Numbered from the stretch's first letter, positions 1,651-29,094 are shown. The stretch is 64,000 nucleotides of DNA from a virus (IMGVR_UViG_2675903060_000001:1-64000); one strand, 5' to 3'. Notes: a model not told the origin generated them from the sequence alone. Numbers and translations are program-made.

Positions 1651-2069
1651 AGGCCGTAACGATCTGGCAGCCCTGGTCCTGGGCCGTCGCTGCCGACCTC
1701 AAGCCCGTCGAGAACCGCACCCGCGCCACCCGGCACCGAGGCGAGATCGCTATCCACGCCGGGAAGCACTGGGACGAGATCGGGGCGTGCGACTGGCGCG
1801 TCATGGAGGCCGCCCGGTCGGAGATGCCGCTGACGGCCGATGACCCGCGGTTCGTGTTCGGCGCGATCATCGCCGTCGCCGAGCTGGTGGACGTGACCCG
1901 CGATGGTCCGGCGCCGTGGGCGGAGCCGGGCCAGGTGCACTGGCTGCTGGCCGGCGTGCGCCCGCTCGCCGACCCGGTGCCGTGCCGGGGCTGGCAGAAC
2001 GTGTGGGACGTGCCGCCCGACGTCGAGGTCGTGGTGCGCGCTCAGCTCGATCGAAAGGTCAGGACATGA
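1644..2069 (+). CDS. ASCH domain protein
   Basis: KAVTIWQPWSWAV..GLKPVENR-like (DLKPVENR)..HRGEIAIHAG signature. Confidence 0.88.
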   Translation: MLKAVTIWQPWSWAVAADLKPVENRTRATRHRGEIAIHAGKHWDEIGACDWRVMEAARSEMPLTADDPRFVFGAIIAVAELVDVTRDGPAPWAEPGQVHWLLAGVRPLADPVPCRGWQNVWDVPPDVEVVVRAQLDRKVRT

Positions 2070-3298: not shown

Positions 3299-4156
3299 AT
3301 GCTCGAAATGTCTGAGTCGCGAGTCAGTCCGCCGTACCGGCTGCGACTGCTCGGCATGGAACTCGCCCGGCTACGCGCCGCTCGCGGCATGACCGGCGCC
3401 CAGGTCGCGCACGTGGCCGGCGTCACCCCCTCCGCGCTGTCGCGGCTGGAGCGCGGCCGGAACACGTACGTGACCGCCGGGGATGTCCGGCGGCTTCTCG
3501 ACTGCTACCAGGCCAGCACGCAGGACGAGACGACATGCTTGCGGCTGGTGGCTGAAGGTCGAGGCACGCCGTACTGGGAGCCGTACGAGCGTGCCGGGGC
3601 GCTGAGCGAGCCAGTCGAGTACGTCGCGTTGGAGACCGAAGCCCGCGAGGTCCGCTACTGGCATCCGCTGATGGTGCCAACCCTGCTCCAGACGTTCGCC
3701 TACGCGCAGGAACTCCTCGCCGCGCAGCACACCGATCCGGCGATGGTGCAGTTGCGGGCGCGGGCACGGATGGCCCGCCAGTGGATCATCCGCTGCGGTG
3801 ACCCGGCGCGGCTGCGGGTCATCGTGGGTGAGGACGCGCTACGGCTCCCGGTGGGTGAGACCGCGGTGATGCGCGGCCAGCTCGTCCGGCTGCTGGACGA
3901 CGCGGCCCTGCCGCATGTGAGCGTCCGCGTGCTGCCCCGGTCGGTCGGAGCGCATCCCGGAATGGCCGGCGGGTTCGTGCTGCTTACGCTGCCGCCGCTC
4001 GGGGATGTGCTGTTCGTGGAGTCCGGCGGTGGGCTGCTGGTCGAGGACGGGCCAGGAGTGGCCGCCTGCTCGGCGGTGTTCGGACAGTTGGACGACCTGG
4101 CGCTGAGCGAGAAGGAGTCGGCGGCCCTGATGCTGCGGGTGTTGCGCGAGAGCTAA
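3299..4156 (+). CDS. Xre HTH + DUF5753 regulator (WhiJ/Scr1-like)
   Basis: LGMELARLRAARGMT..LSRLERG; YVALETEA..VPTLLQTFAYA..RMARQ..GEDAL..MRGQL. Confidence 0.9.
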   Translation: MLEMSESRVSPPYRLRLLGMELARLRAARGMTGAQVAHVAGVTPSALSRLERGRNTYVTAGDVRRLLDCYQASTQDETTCLRLVAEGRGTPYWEPYERAGALSEPVEYVALETEAREVRYWHPLMVPTLLQTFAYAQELLAAQHTDPAMVQLRARARMARQWIIRCGDPARLRVIVGEDALRLPVGETAVMRGQLVRLLDDAALPHVSVRVLPRSVGAHPGMAGGFVLLTLPPLGDVLFVESGGGLLVEDGPGVAACSAVFGQLDDLALSEKESAALMLRVLRES

Positions 4157-23484: not shown

Positions 23485-24150
23485 ATGACCAGCACCAACC
23501 CCACCGCGTTCGAGATCAGCGAGGACCTTCGCGCGGCCGTCCGCGCCGCTCTGGCCGATCTCAACCGCGCCCTTGAGGGGCACACCGGCAACAACCCGAT
23601 GCTCAACGCCTACCGCCTGCCCGCCGCCCGCGCGACGCTCGCGGAGGTCATCGCCATTGTGGACAACGACGGCACCCTCTACACCGGCCCGACGCCGACC
23701 GCGTTCGCGGCCATGGACAAGGTCAGCGAGGCGGACCGCGCTTCGTGGTACGTGATGCCGGACCGCGCCGGAGCCGCCGCCCGCATCGCGGCCACCTGCG
23801 AGGCGTACGGCATCCCCGCCGATCACCTGATCGCGACGCACGCCCCGTCCCACGCGGAGATCAAGGCCATGGTCGGCAGCGCCGACCCGCTGGCCAAAAT
23901 GACCGAGATCCACGCCGAAGCGGCCAAGCGCGAGCAGGAGCGCATCAAGGCGGAGCGTGAGAAGCGGATCAAGAAGGCGGTTGCCGCCGCGCGCAACCTC
24001 ACGGAGTACGGCGGAGACCCCGCCTTGCCGTTCGCCAAGGCGATCGAGAGCGGCGCGGACCGCGCCGAGTTGGCGCAGGCGTTCACCAACGCCGGGCTTC
24101 CGGTTCCGCCGGAGGAGCCCGCCAAGGCGAAGCCCGCGCCGAAGAAGTAG
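23485..24150 (+). CDS. Hypothetical protein
   Basis: GAAGGG RBS, strong GC3 bias. Confidence 0.75.
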   Translation: MTSTNPTAFEISEDLRAAVRAALADLNRALEGHTGNNPMLNAYRLPAARATLAEVIAIVDNDGTLYTGPTPTAFAAMDKVSEADRASWYVMPDRAGAAARIAATCEAYGIPADHLIATHAPSHAEIKAMVGSADPLAKMTEIHAEAAKREQERIKAEREKRIKKAVAAARNLTEYGGDPALPFAKAIESGADRAELAQAFTNAGLPVPPEEPAKAKPAPKK

Positions 24151-24225
24151 CCCCACCCGCCGCGCGCCCCGACGCCACCGGGGCGCGCGGCCCCACCACC
24201 CCCACCACCCCGGAAGGGACAACCA

Positions 24226-24930
24226 GTGAACGTCCTACAGAACCTCGCGGCCCGTTCTATCGCCGCCGTCCGGCTCGCCCACGCCGACCGCCTACGCCAC
24301 CGCGAAGAGTGCGGCATGTGCGGCCCCGACCAGGAATGCCCGCGCGCCGCCGAGCAGTTCGCCGACCTACAGGCCCGCGTGCAGCGCGCCCGCGCCAACC
24401 TGACCACCTACCTCCCCAGGGGCTCTCTGGTCACCTACGGGGGCGCGCTCCGCAGGATGCACGGCGATTGGTGGATTCACGCCACGTGCACGGACTGTGA
24501 TCACACCGCGTACCGGCTGATCAGGGGGCGCGGCATGACCTTGCCCCACGTGCATCTGTCCGAGATCACCAGCGCGCCCATCCTGCAACCCCGCGCGGCT
24601 CAGACGGTGGACGCCGTCCGCGACGCCGTCCGGGAGGTAACCGCCATCCTCGCCATGAACGAGGTCCGGCTTCCGATGCTCGTGGACATCAACGGCTTGG
24701 GGGCGTGCACGCTCGCCTACCCCCGCGCCGCCTACGACCACGAGATAGCCGTAGCGGAGGCGGTCCAGCCGCAGACCCCCGAAGCTGCCTACGTGCTGGC
24801 AGCGCTACGCGCGTTGCCCCTACTGGCCAGCGCCGCCGACAACGGCAACGCCGCCGGAGCCGCCGGAGTCACGCAACGCCTGCTGAAGCTGCGTGAGACA
24901 GCGGCGCGCGTGCACCGCGCCAGCGAGTAG
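24226..24930 (+). CDS. Hypothetical protein with Cys pairs
   Basis: GAAGGGA RBS; CGMC, CTDC. Confidence 0.7.
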   Translation: MNVLQNLAARSIAAVRLAHADRLRHREECGMCGPDQECPRAAEQFADLQARVQRARANLTTYLPRGSLVTYGGALRRMHGDWWIHATCTDCDHTAYRLIRGRGMTLPHVHLSEITSAPILQPRAAQTVDAVRDAVREVTAILAMNEVRLPMLVDINGLGACTLAYPRAAYDHEIAVAEAVQPQTPEAAYVLAALRALPLLASAADNGNAAGAAGVTQRLLKLRETAARVHRASE

Positions 24931-24940
24931 CCGCACCGCC

Positions 24941-24974
24941 GAAGCCCCCGCGCGGACCACCGCGCGGGGGCTTC
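24941..24974 (+). terminator. GC-rich hairpin terminator
   Basis: GAAGCCCCCGCGCGG-ACCA-CCGCGCGGGGGCTTC. Confidence 0.75.
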
Positions 24975-25109
24975 CGCACGCCCAAGATCACCCCCCGTAC
25001 CCCCTCCCCGGCCGCCGGCCGGAGGTACCTCGGTTCCGTTCATGCCGAATGGTTTTGATCTTGCCCAGGGTTTGTATGGTGTCGGAGTCCTGCTGGGCGC
25101 GGCGGGCGG

Positions 25110-25889
25110 ATGGCCGGGGAGGTCGTGGTGTCGGATCGGGTGTGCGTGGGGCCGTGCAACAGGCAGGCTCGCGCGGTGTGGCAGGTGTTCCTCGGGGAGC
25201 GGGAGGCGCATGCGGATGCGGTGGACCGGTGGCTCGCGTCGGGCGGGGAGGGGGAGCCGCCGCCGGAGCCTGCGGTGCCGGTGGTGGAGTGGCGGGCGGG
25301 GGAGCCGCTGCACTGCGGCCGGTGCCGTGCGACGGGGCGGCGGGCGCTGCTGGTGGTGGACGAGCTGGCCGCGAGTCTGGCGGCGCGGCCGGGCGAGGTG
25401 AAGGCGCAGTCCAGGTGGTCGCGAGTGAAGGGCACCCGTCCGCACGGTTCGCTGTCGGGGGAGGCCGACCTCGTGCACACGGTGACGGGGGAGGTGCTGC
25501 GGCTACGCCGGGAGGTGGCCCGGAGGTTGGAGCTCGCGGACCAGCCGCCGGCGGGCCGCTCCGGGATGGCGCGGTCCCGGTCGGTGTCGTGGCTGGTGGA
25601 CAAGCTCGATGCGGCGCTCGCCCTCGACGGGCTGACCGTCGTGTCGAGCGTCGAGGACGACGAGCGGACCGTGGAGCTCGGCCCGGTCGAATGGGCGCTC
25701 GCCTGGGAGAACAAGCTGCGGCGCCTGGTGGATGACGCGCCCGGCCACACGCTCGCCCGCTGTCCGGGGTGCGGGGAGCGGCACCTGGAATGGGCGCCGC
25801 GGGCCGGCTACTACGTGTGCGGCGGCTGCGGGCGGCACGTCAGCGAGGCCGAGGCGCTGGAGCTGGTCACCGAGGAAGCGAGCGCGTGA
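25110..25889 (+). CDS. Zinc-ribbon phage protein
   Basis: CVGPC, CGRC, CPGCG..CGGCG. Confidence 0.7.
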   Translation: MAGEVVVSDRVCVGPCNRQARAVWQVFLGEREAHADAVDRWLASGGEGEPPPEPAVPVVEWRAGEPLHCGRCRATGRRALLVVDELAASLAARPGEVKAQSRWSRVKGTRPHGSLSGEADLVHTVTGEVLRLRREVARRLELADQPPAGRSGMARSRSVSWLVDKLDAALALDGLTVVSSVEDDERTVELGPVEWALAWENKLRRLVDDAPGHTLARCPGCGERHLEWAPRAGYYVCGGCGRHVSEAEALELVTEEASA

Positions 25890-25963
25890 CGCTGGCGGTC
25901 CGCCCTGGATGGACGGCCCGCCAGCTCACGCCGACGAACTACTTCAGCACGTCAGCCGGCGTA

Positions 25964-26170
25964 CTACTTCAGCAGGGGCCGCGCGATGACCTCGACCAGC
26001 GCGACCGGGTCGTAGCCGAGGGCGACGAGCGCGATGCAGCCGCCCATGACGATGAGGGCGACGGCGACCTTCGTGGACATCATCACGCCGGGCTGCGGCG
26101 GAGGGTTACCGCCGCGGCTGTTGCTGCCGGGTTCGTCCGGCGGTTGGCCGGGGAGCGCGGGACTGGACAT
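25964..26170 (-). CDS. Small membrane protein, candidate type I toxin
   Basis: GGAGG RBS inside a hairpin; C-terminal hydrophobic helix. Confidence 0.65.
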   Translation of the reverse strand: MSSPALPGQPPDEPGSNSRGGNPPPQPGVMMSTKVAVALIVMGGCIALVALGYDPVALVEVIARPLLK

Positions 26171-26270
26171 GTGCCTCCGTTCCTGGGGTCAGCTCTGACC
26201 CCAGGAGGCGCAGGTCACAGTGCCGCGCTTCATGTTGCGCCGCACGCAATCGACCGCTTAATGTAAGTGC

Positions 26271-26368
26271 AGTCATTTAACACTCGCTAAGCGACGACGG
26301 ACCTGCATCTCCTGGGGTTCGACTTCATGCGCGACTAGGCCCCGGCCCTGGTACGGCTGGGGCTTTCG
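26271..26368 (+). ncRNA. Candidate ~100-nt antisense sRNA
   Basis: TTGCGC-18-TAATGT promoter (26235-26264), terminator GCCCCGGCC..GGCTGGGGC-TTTC, no ORF in between. Confidence 0.45.
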
Positions 26369-26889
26369 TCGTGTGTGACTACGGTAATGGACTCGCCGCT
26401 CGATGCGAAATGAGCCACTGGTCCTCGGACGAGCTTGAAAAACTCGCCCCTGACCTGCGGAAACACGCTTTCTGGCGCATGTTGCGCACGGGTGGCGCAC
26501 CGCCACCCGTCACGTGCCGGGCCTGCTGGGAGGCGCGGAAACCGGCTCTGACCTGGGAAAAGACGTCGGCGCGCTGAGCGGCGCCCGGATGGCCGGTACT
26601 CTGCGTAACTTTGTTTATTCGCGTGCTGAGAATGTTGAGAACGGCCTGAGATTGCTGAGATTCGCAGGTGGAGCCGCGATCACGGCGTGTCGGCTATCGT
26701 GAACGGTACGGCTCTCGCAAGCCTGCCTCCGAGCGCATCACCTGCCTACGCCAGGGACCGCGCACCGACGAGGTGAAGGTCCGCCCGTGGATCGCGTATC
26801 CCTCTCGCCTCCGTGCGCCCGAAGGTGGCGTCGGTCTCCTGCGTCTTCGAGGTGGGGTGCGTAGGGCCGCCATCTGGAAGGACACTCCC

Positions 26890-27588
26890 ATGACCAGCAA
26901 CCCCCGCTGGAAGAAGCGCGTCCGCGAGTACGCCGCCGCGCACGGCCTCAGCTACCAGCAGGCCCACGAAGCGCTCACCCAGGCCGGAACCTCCGCCCCC
27001 GCCGGCGACGGCTGGACGGCCGACCCCGCTCAATGGACGCACGCCGGAGCGGGCCGCTGGCTGGTCGAATTCAGTGAGCACGGCATCGGCGGCGACGAGG
27101 TCGAGCCCCTCCACCTCGACGCGGCCAGCGCCGCCGACCTGAAGGAACAGCTCGGCATGCTGGCGATGCGGCGCGGCTGGATCGACTTCTGGGTCGAGCT
27201 CGACGGCCTCACCGGACGTTTCCGGTTTGACGGGCTCGAATCCGGCACCGACATCCTCGCCGAGTTCACCCTCCGGCTGGACCCCGACGAGGACGTGGTC
27301 GAGCTGCCCCGTTCGTTCTCCCACGACATGTACGAGCTGATCGACCTCGTTCAGCAGCGGTTCGACTGCACCGTGGACGCCTTCACCTTCGTGCGCGGCG
27401 CCCGCGGCGGCGACGTCGAGTACATGGGGCTGATCTACCGAGCCGGGACGCAGATGTACCACCTGCTCCACATCACCGACCGGGAAGGCGGCTGGGAGTA
27501 CACGCTGTCCGGCGGATGGCCGCTCGCCCGCGACGAGGAAGCCGTCGAGGCGTTCCAGGCGAAGGTCGCCGAGCACATCCACGCCTGA
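26890..27588 (+). CDS. Hypothetical protein with N-terminal KKRVR..GLSYQQA helical motif
   Basis: GGAAGGA RBS; acidic C-terminal region. Confidence 0.75.
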   Translation: MTSNPRWKKRVREYAAAHGLSYQQAHEALTQAGTSAPAGDGWTADPAQWTHAGAGRWLVEFSEHGIGGDEVEPLHLDAASAADLKEQLGMLAMRRGWIDFWVELDGLTGRFRFDGLESGTDILAEFTLRLDPDEDVVELPRSFSHDMYELIDLVQQRFDCTVDAFTFVRGARGGDVEYMGLIYRAGTQMYHLLHITDREGGWEYTLSGGWPLARDEEAVEAFQAKVAEHIHA

Positions 27589-27603
27589 CCCCGAGCATGA
27601 AGA

Positions 27604-27634
27604 AGGCCCGCCGCGCTCCTCGCGCGACGGGCCT
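27604..27634. terminator. Hairpin between convergent genes
   Basis: AGGCCCG-CCGCGC..GCGCGA-CGGGCCT. Confidence 0.55.
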
Positions 27635-27651
27635 CTCCAGAGGGTTCGGGT

Positions 27652-27771
27652 CTACTCGACCTCGGCGGCCTCCTCGTCGTCCTCGACCTCGACCTCGGCG
27701 GTCTCCTCGGGCTCGACGGTGTCGGTGGTGTCGGCGGTCTCGTCCACCTGGTCGTTGAAGCGGGCGCTCAT
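27652..27771 (-). CDS. 39-aa highly acidic micro-protein
   Basis: MSARFNDQVDETADTTDTVEPEETAEVEVEDDEEAAEVE; GAAAGGA RBS; all third positions G/C. Confidence 0.7.
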   Translation of the reverse strand: MSARFNDQVDETADTTDTVEPEETAEVEVEDDEEAAEVE

Positions 27772-27822
27772 GGTGTCATTTCCTTTCGCGAGGAAGAACG
27801 TGTCTCTCCCATCATGACGTGT

Positions 27823-27842
27823 CGTTGGCGGTTCCGCCTACG
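27823..27842. promoter_or_regulatory. Dispersed 20-bp palindrome
   Basis: CGTTGGCGGTTCCGCCTACG. Confidence 0.75.
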
Positions 27843-28047
27843 AACCGGCGGAAAGAATGGCCTCGACCTCCTCCGCGGTGACGGTCCGGCCCTGGCCCCG
27901 GCTCCGGCTGACGTCCTCCGCGATCTGCTCGTGGGTCCAGCCGGGGCAGGCGCGGGCCATTTCGCGCACCTCCGCCGTGGTCTTCTCCTGCTCGTCCGTC
28001 GTGATCGGGGTGAAGTGCGTGCTGCCGGGGCTGTGGTGGCTGTCCAT
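27838..28047 (-). CDS. Small HTH-like protein (69 aa)
   Basis: PGWTHEQIAEDVS..VTAEEVEAIL; GAAGGGA RBS. Confidence 0.65.
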   Translation of the reverse strand: MDSHHSPGSTHFTPITTDEQEKTTAEVREMARACPGWTHEQIAEDVSRSRGQGRTVTAEEVEAILSAGS

Positions 28048-28098
28048 GGTGATGTCCCTTCGCGAGGAGTTGTTCTGTCCCCGCCAGCATGGCGGGTC

Positions 28099-28155
28099 CG
28101 TTGGCGGTTCCGCATGCGTTCCCTGCGTATTGGTGCGTTGGCGGTTCCGCCAGCG
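28099..28155. promoter_or_regulatory. Two tandem copies of the dispersed palindrome
   Basis: CGTTGGCGGTTCCGCATGCG (28099) and CGTTGGCGGTTCCGCCAGCG (28136). Confidence 0.75.
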
Positions 28156-28368
28156 GTTGCGTGCCCGCGATCATGTGTGAAACACTTCGTGCGGGCGGCA
28201 CCCCTATGCCCATCACCCCCCTTGTGACCTGGGCCGATACGGATTGCGGGACTGGACGCGTCTGTGACGGTGCGTGTGCCGCCCCCACCCTTTCCTATCG
28301 GCCGTGGCGTGTTCGCGCGTCTCCGGCCATCTCAGCGCGCCGATTCTTCACGGGAAGCGGGGGTGAAC

Positions 28369-28602
28369 ATGGCCCCGGTCACCGCCGCGATGGCCGCACA
28401 GCGCCTCGGCCGATCCCCGACCACCATCCGCCTGTGGGCCCACCGGTATGCCGCTCGCACGCTCGGCCGGGACGGGCGGCAGGTCGTCTACGACTACGAC
28501 GACCTGGCCACGATCGAGTGGTGCATCTGGGCCGGCCACGTCGTACCGCTCACCCCTGAGGAGCGGGACGAGCTGCGCGCCGCCCGCCGGCGAGCAGCCT
28601 GA
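28369..28602 (+). CDS. MerR/excisionase-like HTH protein
   Basis: VTAAMAAQRLGRSPTTIRLWAHR..VYDYDDL. Confidence 0.75.
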   Translation: MAPVTAAMAAQRLGRSPTTIRLWAHRYAARTLGRDGRQVVYDYDDLATIEWCIWAGHVVPLTPEERDELRAARRRAA

Positions 28603-28623
28603 TGCAGCACGAAAGGAACCTGT

Positions 28624-28839
28624 ATGAACTTCGGCCATGCCCTGGCGCACCTCCGCGACGGCCACAAGGTCACCCGCGACGGCTGGAACGGTCGCGGCAT
28701 GTGGCTCGCCCTCCAGGTCCCCGACCAGCACTCGAAGATGAGCCGCCCCTACATCTACATGTCCACCGTGGACGGCGGCCTGGTGCCGTGGGTCGCGTCC
28801 CAGACGGACCTGCTCGCCGACGACTGGCGGCTGGCGTAG
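28624..28839 (+). CDS. tad2: DUF2829 / Thoeris anti-defence 2 (Tad2)-family protein
   Basis: MNFGHAL..G.KV.R.GWNG.GMW..PYIYM..VPW.ASQTDLLADDW. Confidence 0.9.
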   Translation: MNFGHALAHLRDGHKVTRDGWNGRGMWLALQVPDQHSKMSRPYIYMSTVDGGLVPWVASQTDLLADDWRLA

Positions 28840-28863
28840 CCCCGCCCTCTTGAAGGAGCCCTC

Positions 28864-29094
28864 GTGCAGATCAGGCCCCGCGTCCGCATCGTCGGCGCCG
28901 AACGCCACCAGCTCGCCCAGCACATCGCTGGCCGCTACAGCGCGGGCGAGTCCATCCGCGCGCTCGCGGCCTCGATCGGCCGCTCGTACGGGTTCATCCA
29001 CCAGCTCCTGGAGGAGGCGGGCGCCGAGATCCGGCACCGCGGCGGCAACCACCGCACCCGCCCCACCACCACGGCGGCCGGGGCCGGAAAGTGA
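28864..29094 (+). CDS. HTH_58-type DNA-binding protein
   Basis: RYSAGESIRALAASIGRSYGFIHQLL.EAG..R.RGG. Confidence 0.85.
   Translation: MQIRPRVRIVGAERHQLAQHIAGRYSAGESIRALAASIGRSYGFIHQLLEEAGAEIRHRGGNHRTRPTTTAAGAGK

What the first reader, a model, noticed from the sequence alone, without database searches (positions are those of the whole stretch)
25964..26370. Candidate type I toxin-antitoxin / RNA switch of an unrecognised family
Seen: the minus-strand gene for a 68-aa TM protein has its GGAGG RBS next to a 12-bp perfect hairpin (26181-26206) with a GCCTCC anti-SD. A 19-nt upstream segment (26300-26318) is the inverted complement (17/19) of that anti-SD arm (26198-26216), giving two mutually exclusive folds. 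The opposite strand has TTGCGC-18-TAATGT and an intrinsic terminator (26339-26368) bracketing a ~100-nt ORF-less RNA that covers that upstream arm. Established: hok/sok and Fst-type systems use this logic. Inference: an antisense-controlled membrane toxin for element maintenance or abortive defence.
Basis: partly seen in the sequence, partly recalled or inferred. Interest (0 to 1): 0.7.

Follow-up and report, generated by a model that had tools for sequence, protein, structure and literature searches.

The report
Candidate RNA-controlled membrane toxin module
A 500-base unit on a plasmid-like phage of the actinomycete Nonomuraea encodes a small membrane protein behind a foldable leader and a facing 100-base antisense RNA; it looks like a new type I toxin-antitoxin family in a phylum where none has been proven, but neither the RNAs nor toxicity have been measured.

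Summary

I found eight more copies of the unit, nine in all, from six other Nonomuraea-type assemblies and one sequencing run. All nine share:
- an antisense-strand TTGCnn-17/18-TAnnnT, a pattern that occurs once in the whole 64-kb window;
- an antisense hairpin with a T-rich tail, giving a predicted RNA of 97-110 nt;
- a sense TAnnnT just upstream of a 5' stem-loop;
- a long-range helix (A:B) whose letters change between copies while the pairing holds;
- a second partner for B at the ribosome site.

Flanking genes differ between copies. One genome has two copies in tandem, and four loci hold decayed remnants. The protein (64-91 aa, disordered N-terminus, one membrane helix) matches no Pfam, NCBIfam or PADLOC family, and the RNA matches no Rfam family.

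Best reading: a type I toxin-antitoxin-like module. The antisense RNA masks an activator arm, so the ribosome site stays closed. It may stabilise the carrier, a 107-kb circular phage contig with ParA and no integrase. Transcripts and toxicity are untested.

This scan has proposed other, unrelated candidate type I families in Actinobacteria on other DNA.

The parts
25891..25925 (.). GC-rich hairpin between the convergent genes. It is the 3' end of the small-gene transcription unit, and homologous hairpins follow the ORF in the other copies.
   Evidence: I4, 15-nt arms, 87%; searches show related hairpins after the stop codon elsewhere
25964..26170 (-). ORF for a 68-aa protein: disordered Pro/Gly-rich N-terminus (1-32), hydrophobic helix 33-50, GYDP break, helix 55-67. 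Candidate toxin.
   Evidence: GC3 0.93; alignment of 7 homologues; 19-aa window, mean KD 2.44; AlphaFold2, pLDDT 80-86 over the helix
26174..26178 (-). Shine-Dalgarno GGAGG, 3 nt before the ATG. An SD 2-5 nt before an in-frame ATG/GTG/TTG is present in all nine copies.
26181..26192 (-). Element C: 3' arm of the perfect 12-bp hairpin, next to the SD.
   Evidence: I6
26195..26216 (-). Element B (anti-SD arm, includes CCTCC). It can pair either with C and the SD or with the upstream element A.
   Evidence: I1, I6
26218..26229 (-). Leader segment that pairs with codons 2-6 (26154-26165). It extends the closed structure over the start codon.
   Evidence: I8, 11/12; minimum-energy fold
26235..26264 (+). 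Antisense promoter: -35 TTGCGC (26235-26240), 18-nt spacer, -10 TAATGT (26259-26264).
   Evidence: the same TTGCnn-17/18-TAnnnT in 9 of 9 copies, and one match in the whole window
26271..26372 (+). Predicted ORF-less antisense RNA of about 100 nt (candidate antitoxin). It is complementary to about the first 100 nt of the mRNA leader, including element A.
   Evidence: predicted length 97-110 nt in all copies; its longest reading frame is ATG plus 2 codons
26300..26318 (-). Element A: upstream arm complementary (17/19) to B. Proposed activator (anti-anti-SD) and the main target of the antisense RNA.
   Evidence: I1; helix conserved with compensatory changes
26332..26371 (.). Stem-loop P1/P2. On the + strand it is the intrinsic terminator of the antisense RNA (stem 26338-26363, then TTTCGTCGT). 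On the - strand it is the 5'-terminal stem-loop of the mRNA.
   Evidence: helices 1-2, 9 of 15 pairs with changes on both sides; T-rich tails in 9 of 9
26381..26386 (-). TACCGT, candidate -10 of the mRNA promoter. It predicts a 5' end at about 26373-26375.
   Evidence: a TAnnnT starts 6-11 nt upstream of the leader start in 9 of 9 copies; no conserved -35 was found
26455..26466 (-). Conserved motif GTTTCCGCAGGT ('Z') upstream of the module. Role unknown.
   Evidence: present in 5 of 9 copies at variable distance; local repeats D2, D4, D8

Best explanation
The locus is a self-contained module of about 500 bp of the type I toxin-antitoxin kind.

1. A promoter with only a -10 box (TACCGT) starts the mRNA at the foot of a stable 5' stem-loop.
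2. The 200-nt leader holds three elements. A lies upstream. B is an anti-SD arm. C is the Shine-Dalgarno and start region. B can pair with A, a long-range helix that encloses about 75 nt and leaves the ribosome site more open. Alternatively B pairs with C, which buries GGAGG and the ATG.
3. A convergent promoter inside the leader makes an antisense RNA of about 100 nt that ends at the same stem-loop. This RNA is fully complementary to the mRNA's first 100 nt or so, including A but not the ribosome site.
4. When the antisense RNA is present it occupies A. The long duplex would probably also be cut by RNase III. B then closes the ribosome site, and the 68-aa single-pass membrane protein is not made.
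5. If the antisense RNA decays faster than the mRNA, as after loss of the element, A:B forms, the protein is made and the cell is harmed. That would stabilise the carrier, a circular phage genome that has ParA and no integrase.

Shown in silico: the elements, their conservation, and the covariation of the A:B helix and the stem-loop. Inferred: both transcripts and their ends, the direction of the switch, the relative RNA stabilities, toxicity, and the maintenance role.
For: 1. Nine copies share the layout.

2. Antisense promoter and terminator. TTGCnn-17/18-TAnnnT is present in 9 of 9 copies, against one match in the whole 64-kb window on both strands. It is followed 97-110 nt later by a hairpin and a T-rich tail. 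No conserved ORF lies downstream of that terminator. In L020 and L022 the next gene faces the other way, so this RNA is not the leader of another gene.

3. A:B helix.
- It is in the minimum-energy fold of all nine leaders cut at the start codon.
- RNAalifold predicts it from 5 and from 9 sequences; with 9 sequences, 7 of 11 pairs show changes on both sides.
- On the five-copy alignment, 84% of cells across all six predicted helices are paired, against 35-44% when the partners are slid.
- The cognate A:B duplex is the best partner in 8 of 9 copies, mean -34.8 against -22.2 kcal/mol for non-cognate pairs.
- In L027 module 2 and L030 the letters are entirely different but still complementary.
- In L020 the changed pairs (CCUUAGG with CCUGAGG) have no counterpart near the SD. 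The covariation is therefore between A and B, which puts A inside the mRNA.

4. Alternative B:C fold. It buries the SD and/or the start codon when A is masked. Masking the antisense target lowers SD accessibility in 7 of 9 copies: 0.34 to 0.01 in L004, 0.37 to 0.17 in L022, 0.39 to 0.16 in L027 module 2.

5. Sense -10. A TAnnnT lies next to the 5' stem-loop in 9 of 9 copies.

6. Protein. There is one strongly hydrophobic 19-aa segment in every homologue. The start next to the SD is in frame in all copies. The model shows a disordered N-terminus and two helices.

7. Behaviour like a toxin-antitoxin module.
- Flanks vary between copies.
- G044 holds a tandem pair.
- Four loci hold remnants without a leader.
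- This copy sits on a phage.
- The carrier contig is circular, has no integrase and has a ParA-like gene.

8. Literature. Type I systems on prophages stabilise them in Clostridioides difficile (PMC7699646). SD-sequestering leaders are typical of type I toxins, and timPR uses a long-range interaction that frees the SD (PMC13000454).
Against: - No transcript data exist for either strand. The 5' end of the mRNA is inferred only from a -10-like hexamer without a -35.
- Toxicity is untested. At 64-91 aa with a 30-50-aa hydrophilic N-terminus, the protein is larger than most type I toxins, which PMC12390103 gives as under 60 aa.
- In the window's own copy the closed B:C fold already wins once 18-30 nt of coding sequence are added, so masking A changes nothing there. 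The predicted effect is also small in L020 and L030.
- In some copies the start codon stays in a small hairpin even in the 'open' state.
- The covariation rests on nine sequences from about four lineages. The tested structure came from the same alignments, and the A and B windows were taken from the minimum-energy helices. Both choices favour the cognate pairs.
- The family is very small, so selection for a general function is hard to judge: 3 clusters among 1.8 billion representative proteins, and 10 of 110 genomes of the genus.
Confidence: 0.5

Rival explanations
1. The regulatory layout is the same (antisense RNA plus leader switch), but the protein is not a toxin. It would be a harmless small membrane protein whose dose must be kept low, for example a prophage-expressed exclusion or membrane-modulating factor. 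The module would then not act as an addiction or abortive system.
For: The protein is longer than typical type I toxins and has a long hydrophilic N-terminus. It matches no toxin family. Phages carry many small membrane proteins of other function, and the only hit is a weak one to a PHROG of unknown function (E = 0.0035). In L006 it lies beside a gene with a peptidoglycan-binding domain.
Against: The double lock (sequestered SD plus dedicated antisense RNA), the autonomous spread into unrelated contexts, the tandem duplication and the frequent decay are the pattern of type I modules. Exclusion or lysis genes normally sit in operons with their partners, whereas this unit has its own promoter and terminator in every copy.
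Confidence: 0.3
2. The two convergent promoters form a transcriptional-interference switch, or the + strand RNA is mainly a trans-acting small RNA with other targets. Base pairing of the RNA with element A would then not be the controlling step.
For: The promoters face each other about 100 bp apart in all copies, a geometry known from phage switches (my own knowledge: coliphage 186 pR/pL). The RNA carries a CUCCU-type anti-SD-like stretch that could pair with other ribosome sites.
Against: Interference alone does not explain why A and B co-vary, nor why B has an alternative partner at the ribosome site in every copy. The anti-SD-like letters are not conserved: L027 module 2 and L030 have different ones, as expected if the RNA's partner is its own cognate leader.
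Confidence: 0.12
3. The repeats are DNA-level features or chance: protein-binding palindromes, ends of a small mobile element, or the high background of GC-rich hairpins. No regulatory RNA structure would exist.
For: High-GC DNA is rich in inverted repeats (one search lists 13 in 771 bp). A 26-bp perfect palindrome could bind a dimeric protein.
Against: The palindrome is not kept as a palindrome elsewhere. In L004 the arms are 27 nt apart, and in L020 only CCUCCU with AGGAGG remains. The A and B letters change while pairing is kept, including G-U pairs that work only in RNA of the sense strand. No other copy of the repeat exists in the genome or the window.
Confidence: 0.04

Closest known systems
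timP/TimR type I toxin-antitoxin system of Enterobacteria (PMC13000454)
   Same: Both encode a small membrane protein whose SD is held in a stem-loop. In both, a long-range interaction in the 5' UTR competes with that stem-loop and frees the SD without RNA processing. In both, the antitoxin RNA binds the 5' UTR and acts by destabilising an activating structure instead of covering the SD.
   Different: There is no sequence or structural homology. timP activation also needs a pseudoknot. As far as I recall, TimR is not a fully overlapping cis-antisense RNA. Here the antisense RNA is made from a convergent promoter inside the leader and is perfectly complementary to about 100 nt. The host phylum differs, and the protein here is 64-91 aa.
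aapA1/IsoA1 of Helicobacter pylori (PMC5416894, PMC6733600) and hok/sok of plasmid R1
   Same: All have a cis-encoded antisense RNA against the 5' part of a toxin mRNA, a translationally inert fold with a sequestered SD, and alternative mRNA folds that decide translation. In those systems RNase III cleaves the duplex.
   Different: Those mRNAs are activated by 3'-end processing that breaks a 5'-3' interaction, and nothing here suggests processing. Sok and IsoA1 act at or next to the translation start (of mok, or of aapA1), whereas here the RNA stops about 90 nt upstream of the SD. The proteins are unrelated: no Pfam Hok_Gef hit or any other. The RNA is unrelated: no Rfam hit.
Antisense-RNA-driven attenuation in plasmids pT181 and pIP501 (my own knowledge, not checked in papers here)
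   Same: The logic is the same. A leader has mutually exclusive helices, and binding of a short countertranscript to the upstream arm releases the downstream arm to form the 'off' structure.
   Different: There the 'off' structure is a transcription terminator in front of a replication gene. Here it is an SD-sequestering hairpin without a U-tract, in front of a membrane-protein gene.
Prophage-borne type I systems of Firmicutes: bsrG/SR4 and yonT/SR6 on SPbeta, CD0977.1-RCd11 and others on phiCD630-1 (PMC5848175, PMC7699646)
   Same: These are also small membrane toxins with an antisense RNA of about 100 nt, carried by prophages as stand-alone units. A role in keeping the element has been shown in C. 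difficile.
   Different: Those antisense RNAs overlap the 3' end or the coding region of the toxin mRNA. There is no homology, and the phylum differs.

Membership tests
Type I toxin-antitoxin systems (generic definition) | Small hydrophobic, usually membrane-inserting, protein encoded by a stand-alone gene | tested here: met
   The homologues are 64-91 aa with one 19-aa segment of mean KD 2.1-2.6. The model shows a helix at residues 33-50. Each copy has its own SD, start and terminator. Length is above the usual limit of under 60 aa (PMC12390103).
Type I toxin-antitoxin systems (generic definition) | Gene for a short non-coding RNA complementary to the toxin mRNA | tested here: inconclusive
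   The promoter and terminator signals are conserved in 9 of 9 copies, and the predicted RNA has no ORF. Complementarity to the mRNA depends on an mRNA 5' end upstream of 26318. This is supported by A:B covariation and a conserved -10, but no transcript data are available.
Type I toxin-antitoxin systems (generic definition) | Toxin mRNA folded so that the ribosome binding site is sequestered | tested here: met
   Predicted folds bury the SD and/or the start codon in the window, L004, L020 and L022, and the start codon in L006. These are in silico predictions only.
Type I toxin-antitoxin systems (generic definition) | Expression of the protein arrests growth or kills, and the RNA prevents this | not testable with these tools
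   This needs expression assays. No data exist for this protein family.
Known type I toxin protein families (Hok/Gef, Fst, Ldr, TisB, Ibs, ShoB, TxpA/BsrG and others) and defence-system proteins | Sequence match to the family profile | tested here: not met
   None of 7 homologues hits Pfam-A, NCBIfam or PADLOC at E <= 0.01. There is only a weak hit to a PHROG of unknown function.
Known antitoxin or regulatory RNA families (Rfam 15) | Covariance-model match at the gathering score | tested here: not met
   No family reaches its gathering score in the window. The best sub-threshold hits are sroE at 26.1 bits against 51, and chrB-a at 25.5 against 43.9. Both are probably chance.
timPR-like structural switch | Long-range 5' UTR interaction that competes with the SD-sequestering stem-loop | tested here: met
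   The A:B helix is conserved with compensatory changes, and B is shared with the SD-sequestering fold. This is a likeness of mechanism only. Homology was not tested, and none is expected.

The most novel reading that the evidence does not exclude
This is the first type I toxin-antitoxin family of Actinomycetota that can be defined by comparative RNA structure. Its antitoxin works indirectly: it is a cis-antisense RNA that never touches the ribosome site. It titrates an upstream activator arm, so that a three-element leader snaps into the SD-closed state. An integrase-less, ParA-bearing phage-plasmid uses the module as an addiction module.
Probability: 0.35. Interest if true: 0.72.

Novelty: new variant of a known kind. 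Interest (0 to 1): 0.6.

Why it matters
According to a 2025 paper (PMC12390103), type I toxin-antitoxin systems have been identified only in Proteobacteria, Firmicutes and Tenericutes, plus that paper's own cyanobacterial candidate. The paper attributes the narrow range to search bias.

This locus offers a testable actinobacterial family of nine copies. The copies carry enough natural covariation to define the mRNA switch, the antisense gene and both promoters before any experiment.

If it is confirmed, four things would follow:
- RNA-antitoxin systems would be known from the phylum of the main antibiotic producers.
- There would be a second example, independent of timPR, of toxin control by a purely structural long-range switch.
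- It would suggest how a large actinophage without an integrase is kept in its host.
- It would supply a compact RNA-controlled counter-selection or plasmid-stabilising cassette for high-GC hosts.

If the protein is not toxic, the module is still a clear case of antisense-driven translational attenuation in actinomycetes.

Tried and rejected
- **DNA similarity.** Megablast of 24000-29000 against the phage and plasmid collections found nothing.
- **Protein word search.** It found only the query itself.
- **Wider scans.** The viral-contig and metagenome-contig scans with the protein profile found no relatives. One alignment was too diverse to scan with.
- **ESM Atlas.** Only low-scoring, uninformative neighbours.
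- **+ strand RNA as leader or attenuator of downstream + strand genes.** Rejected. The ORF at 26371-26577 is not conserved, there is no common ORF downstream of the terminator in the other copies, and the neighbouring genes differ or face the other way.
- **Internal Met31 as the true start.** This would give a peptide of about 38 aa. Rejected, because the Met is replaced by Val or Ile in the two L027 copies, no SD precedes it, and the start next to the SD is in frame in all copies.
- **mRNA promoter between the antisense promoter and element B.** This would make the two RNAs divergent with no overlap. I read the leaders of the window, L004 and L020 by eye for such a promoter and found no shared -10 (sequences; no scan was run). 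A:B covariation also argues that A is transcribed.
- **Dispersed repeat or MITE.** No other copy in the genome or the window.
- **-35 box for the sense promoter.** None is conserved.
- **Motif Z (26455-26466).** I could not explain it. Its distance to the promoter varies from 55 to 143 nt.
- **Covariance model for more copies.** Considered and not built, because the six-frame protein profile search of the whole genus had already been run.

Full report
**Setting.** The window is the first 64 kb of contig C9 of a 10-Mb, 70%-GC genome. Public titles of related loci name the genus Nonomuraea. C9 is 106,863 bp and its two ends share 95 identical bases, so it assembles as a circle. It is a phage genome. 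It carries a YqaJ/RecT pair, large terminase, SPP1-type portal and P22-type coat protein, and a Tad2-like protein and HTH proteins next to the finding. Neither a tyrosine integrase nor a large serine recombinase maps to C9. A ParA-like ATPase does, at C9:105922-106479. An episomal, plasmid-like prophage is therefore plausible, but this was not shown.

**Observation.**
- the 68-codon ORF at 25964-26170 (-), GC3 0.93;
- GGAGG at 26174-26178;
- the perfect 12-bp palindrome 26181-26192 / 26195-26206;
- the 17/19 inverted repeat 26198-26216 / 26300-26318;
- the + strand TTGCGC-18-TAATGT at 26235-26264;
- a hairpin at 26338-26363 followed by TTTCGTCGT.

A further stem pairs 26218-26229 with codons 2-6 (I8). 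The 251-nt leader folds better than all 200 shuffles, z = -4.1. Its minimum-energy fold closes GGAGG and the ATG in a long hairpin. Cut at the start codon, the minimum-energy fold switches to the long-range helix between 26300-26318 (A) and 26195-26216 (B). The two states are therefore close in energy. The generic promoter and terminator scanner found neither signal. I attribute this to its E. coli-like thresholds.

**Relatives.** The protein family is tiny. A profile search of 1.84 billion representative proteins gave three clusters. A six-frame profile search gave hits in 10 of 110 genomes of the genus, and only one weak hit in 89 other genera of the family. With the contigs behind those hits I obtained nine complete modules:
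- the window;
- L004 (N. terrae);
- L020, which is identical to L021;
- L022 (a sequencing-run assembly);
- L006 (N. ceibae);
- two tandem modules in L027 (G044);
- L030 (G010);
- L031 (G003).

Four loci (L005, L023, L033, L034) keep only the C-terminal part of the ORF and its terminator, without a leader. Flanking genes differ from copy to copy:
- a pentapeptide-repeat protein and a DNA ligase in L004;
- APH, DUF6236, DUF6221 and a transposase in L020;
- HTH and DUF6545 proteins in L022;
- a protein with a peptidoglycan-binding domain in L006.

The conserved unit runs from a hairpin after the stop codon to just beyond the antisense terminator. It behaves as an autonomous cassette.

**The antisense gene.** On the strand opposite the ORF, all nine leaders contain exactly one TTGCnn-17/18-TAnnnT. 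The same pattern occurs once in the entire 64-kb window on both strands, at this locus. The spacers differ, while the TTGC and the TA...T stay fixed. A covarying GC-rich hairpin followed by a T-rich tail (TTTCGTCGT, TTTTGTCGT, TTTTGTTCTGT and similar) sits 97-110 nt downstream of the -10. The RNA has no ORF. No conserved ORF follows the terminator. In two copies the next gene points the other way. A stand-alone small RNA is therefore the simplest reading. The alternative, that it is the leader of another gene, is rejected.

**The mRNA leader.** In all nine copies a TAnnnT hexamer starts 6-11 nt upstream of the 5' stem-loop, which is the same hairpin read on the other strand. No -35 is conserved. 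From my own knowledge this is common in actinobacterial promoters. It predicts an mRNA that begins at the foot of a stable stem-loop, and an antisense RNA complementary to its first 100 nt or so.

The key test is the helix between A and B.
- It appears in the minimum-energy fold of 9 of 9 leaders.
- RNAalifold predicts it from five sequences and from nine.
- With nine sequences, 7 of its 11 pairs show changes on both sides.
- On the five-copy alignment, 84% of cells across all six predicted helices are paired, against 35-44% when partners are slid by 1-3 columns. No shuffle in 500 reached the observed values for four of five measures.
- The changes are independent: GGAG:CUCC becomes GGAA:UUCC in L004; CCCCAGG:CCUGGGG becomes CCUUAGG:CCUGAGG in L020; there is an A-U to G-C change in L022; and UCCAAGAGG:CUUCUUGGA in L027 module 2 stands against UCCGGGGAG:CUUCCCGGA in L030.
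- In a 9 x 9 matrix of duplex energies, the cognate B is the best partner of A in eight copies and second in one. Means are -34.8 kcal/mol for cognate pairs and -22.2 for non-cognate pairs.

There are caveats. The copies fall into about four lineages. The structure was derived from the same alignments. The windows came from the minimum-energy helices.

Because the A:B helix spans the antisense promoter, it can form only in a sense transcript that covers that promoter. This is indirect evidence that the two RNAs overlap.

**The switch.** In every copy, B or its immediate flank has a second partner at the translation start:
- CCUCC with GGAGG plus the 12-bp hairpin in the window;
- CUUCCUGGG with CCCAGGAGG, and ACCUGACCU with AGGUCAGGU, in L004;
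- CCUCCU with AGGAGG in L020;
- AUUACC with GGUGAU in L022;
- GCUGGCGA with UUGUCAGC over the start codon in L006.

I forbade pairing of the nucleotides covered by the antisense RNA and recomputed the mean unpaired probability of the SD-start stretch. It fell in 7 of 9 copies. The fall was strong in L004 (0.34 to 0.01), L022 (0.37 to 0.17) and L027 module 2 (0.39 to 0.16). It was slight in four copies. It did not fall in the window or in L030. The thermodynamic support for the direction of the switch is thus real but uneven. Co-transcriptional folding (A is made before C) and RNase III cleavage of a 100-bp duplex are further inferred contributions.

**The protein.** The homologues are 64-91 aa. 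The N-terminal 30-50 residues are hydrophilic and Pro/Gly/Asp-rich. They evolve fast, with no excess of synonymous change. They keep a PD motif and a G-x-x-x-S-x-K motif, and the start next to the SD is in frame in all copies. One 19-aa segment has mean hydropathy 2.1-2.6. AlphaFold2 on the 7-sequence alignment (mean pLDDT 65.5) gives residues 1-32 as coil, a helix at 33-50 (block pLDDT 80-86), a break at GYDP, and a helix at 55-67. There is no hit in Pfam, NCBIfam or PADLOC for any of seven homologues. There is no Rfam family at the gathering score, only weak sub-threshold hits.

**Comparison with known systems.** The generic criteria of a type I system are met as far as sequence can show: a small membrane protein, a sequestered ribosome site and a dedicated antisense RNA gene. 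Toxicity and neutralisation cannot be tested here.

The unit is not a member of any described toxin or RNA family. In mechanism it is closest to timPR. There, a long-range interaction competes with the SD-sequestering stem-loop, and the antitoxin destabilises an activating structure (PMC13000454). It is also close to antisense-driven attenuation of plasmid replication genes (my own knowledge). It differs from hok/sok and aapA1/IsoA1, which need 3' processing (PMC5416894). It also differs from the Firmicute prophage systems, whose antisense RNAs overlap the 3' end or the coding region (PMC5848175, PMC7699646).

PMC12390103 states that type I systems are known only from Proteobacteria, Firmicutes and Tenericutes. 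Earlier notes of this scan propose other, unrelated candidate families in Actinobacteria on other DNA. None of them is this family, and none has been tested.

**Verdict.** It remains open in its functional part, with about 0.5 that the protein is a toxin and the unit a toxin-antitoxin or maintenance module. The main rival is a non-toxic membrane protein under the same control.

Noticed in passing
whole contig C9 (the window is C9:1-64000); ParA-like gene at C9:105922-106479 (-): The 106,863-bp phage contig has 95 identical bases at both ends, so it assembles as a circle. It has no tyrosine or large serine integrase, and it has a ParA-like ATPase next to the window's start. It is a candidate phage-plasmid of an actinomycete.
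   Followed up: partly
window 25930-25949 and 25955-25974: A 20-nt direct repeat (18/20) duplicates the last codons, the stop codon and 9 nt downstream of the ORF, 25 nt apart. It may be a scar of insertion or duplication.
   Followed up: no
window 26445-26565 (- strand motif at 26455-26466): The motif GTTTCCGCAGGT lies upstream of the module and is conserved in 5 of 9 copies, at 55-143 nt from the sense -10. The same stretch of the window holds two further direct repeats and a second CATGTTGCGC. In L022 and L027 the motif is followed by GG(G/T)TAC after 13-14 nt, which resembles a SigB-type promoter. This was not tested.
   Followed up: partly
L027 (G044:C36) 1264-1716 and 2084-2557: Two diverged copies of the whole module (leader, antisense gene, ORF, terminator) lie in tandem about 570 bp apart. 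Their A:B helices use different letters.
   Followed up: yes
L005 (G078), L023 (metagenome), L033 (G012), L034 (G070): These loci hold leaderless C-terminal remnants of the ORF with its terminator. In L005, L023 and L034, and in the intact copy L030, the remnant or ORF lies next to the same flanking sequence (GTCACTC-CGCATGCC). This suggests an old chromosomal site where the module has decayed repeatedly.
   Followed up: partly
L006 1333-2319 (-): An open frame with a weak peptidoglycan-binding-domain match runs on the opposite strand straight through the small ORF before reaching a stop. The module may have been inserted into the 3' end of that gene.
   Followed up: no
L004 about 1690-1712 (-), L020 about 4000-4021, L027 about 2287-2306: A small conserved hairpin (GGUGUUC-loop-GAACGCC) includes the GTG start codon and codons 2-6. 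It may explain the conserved N-terminus (V-F-K/D-R-T-P), and it keeps the start partly closed even in the 'open' leader state.
   Followed up: no
window 26435-26518 (-) and 26558-26585 (-): There is a sub-threshold Rfam hit to the enterobacterial sRNA sroE (26.1 bits against 51) over a 10-bp perfect hairpin at 26488-26510. A terminator-like site lies on the - strand just upstream of the module. Both are probably chance or insulating structures.
   Followed up: no
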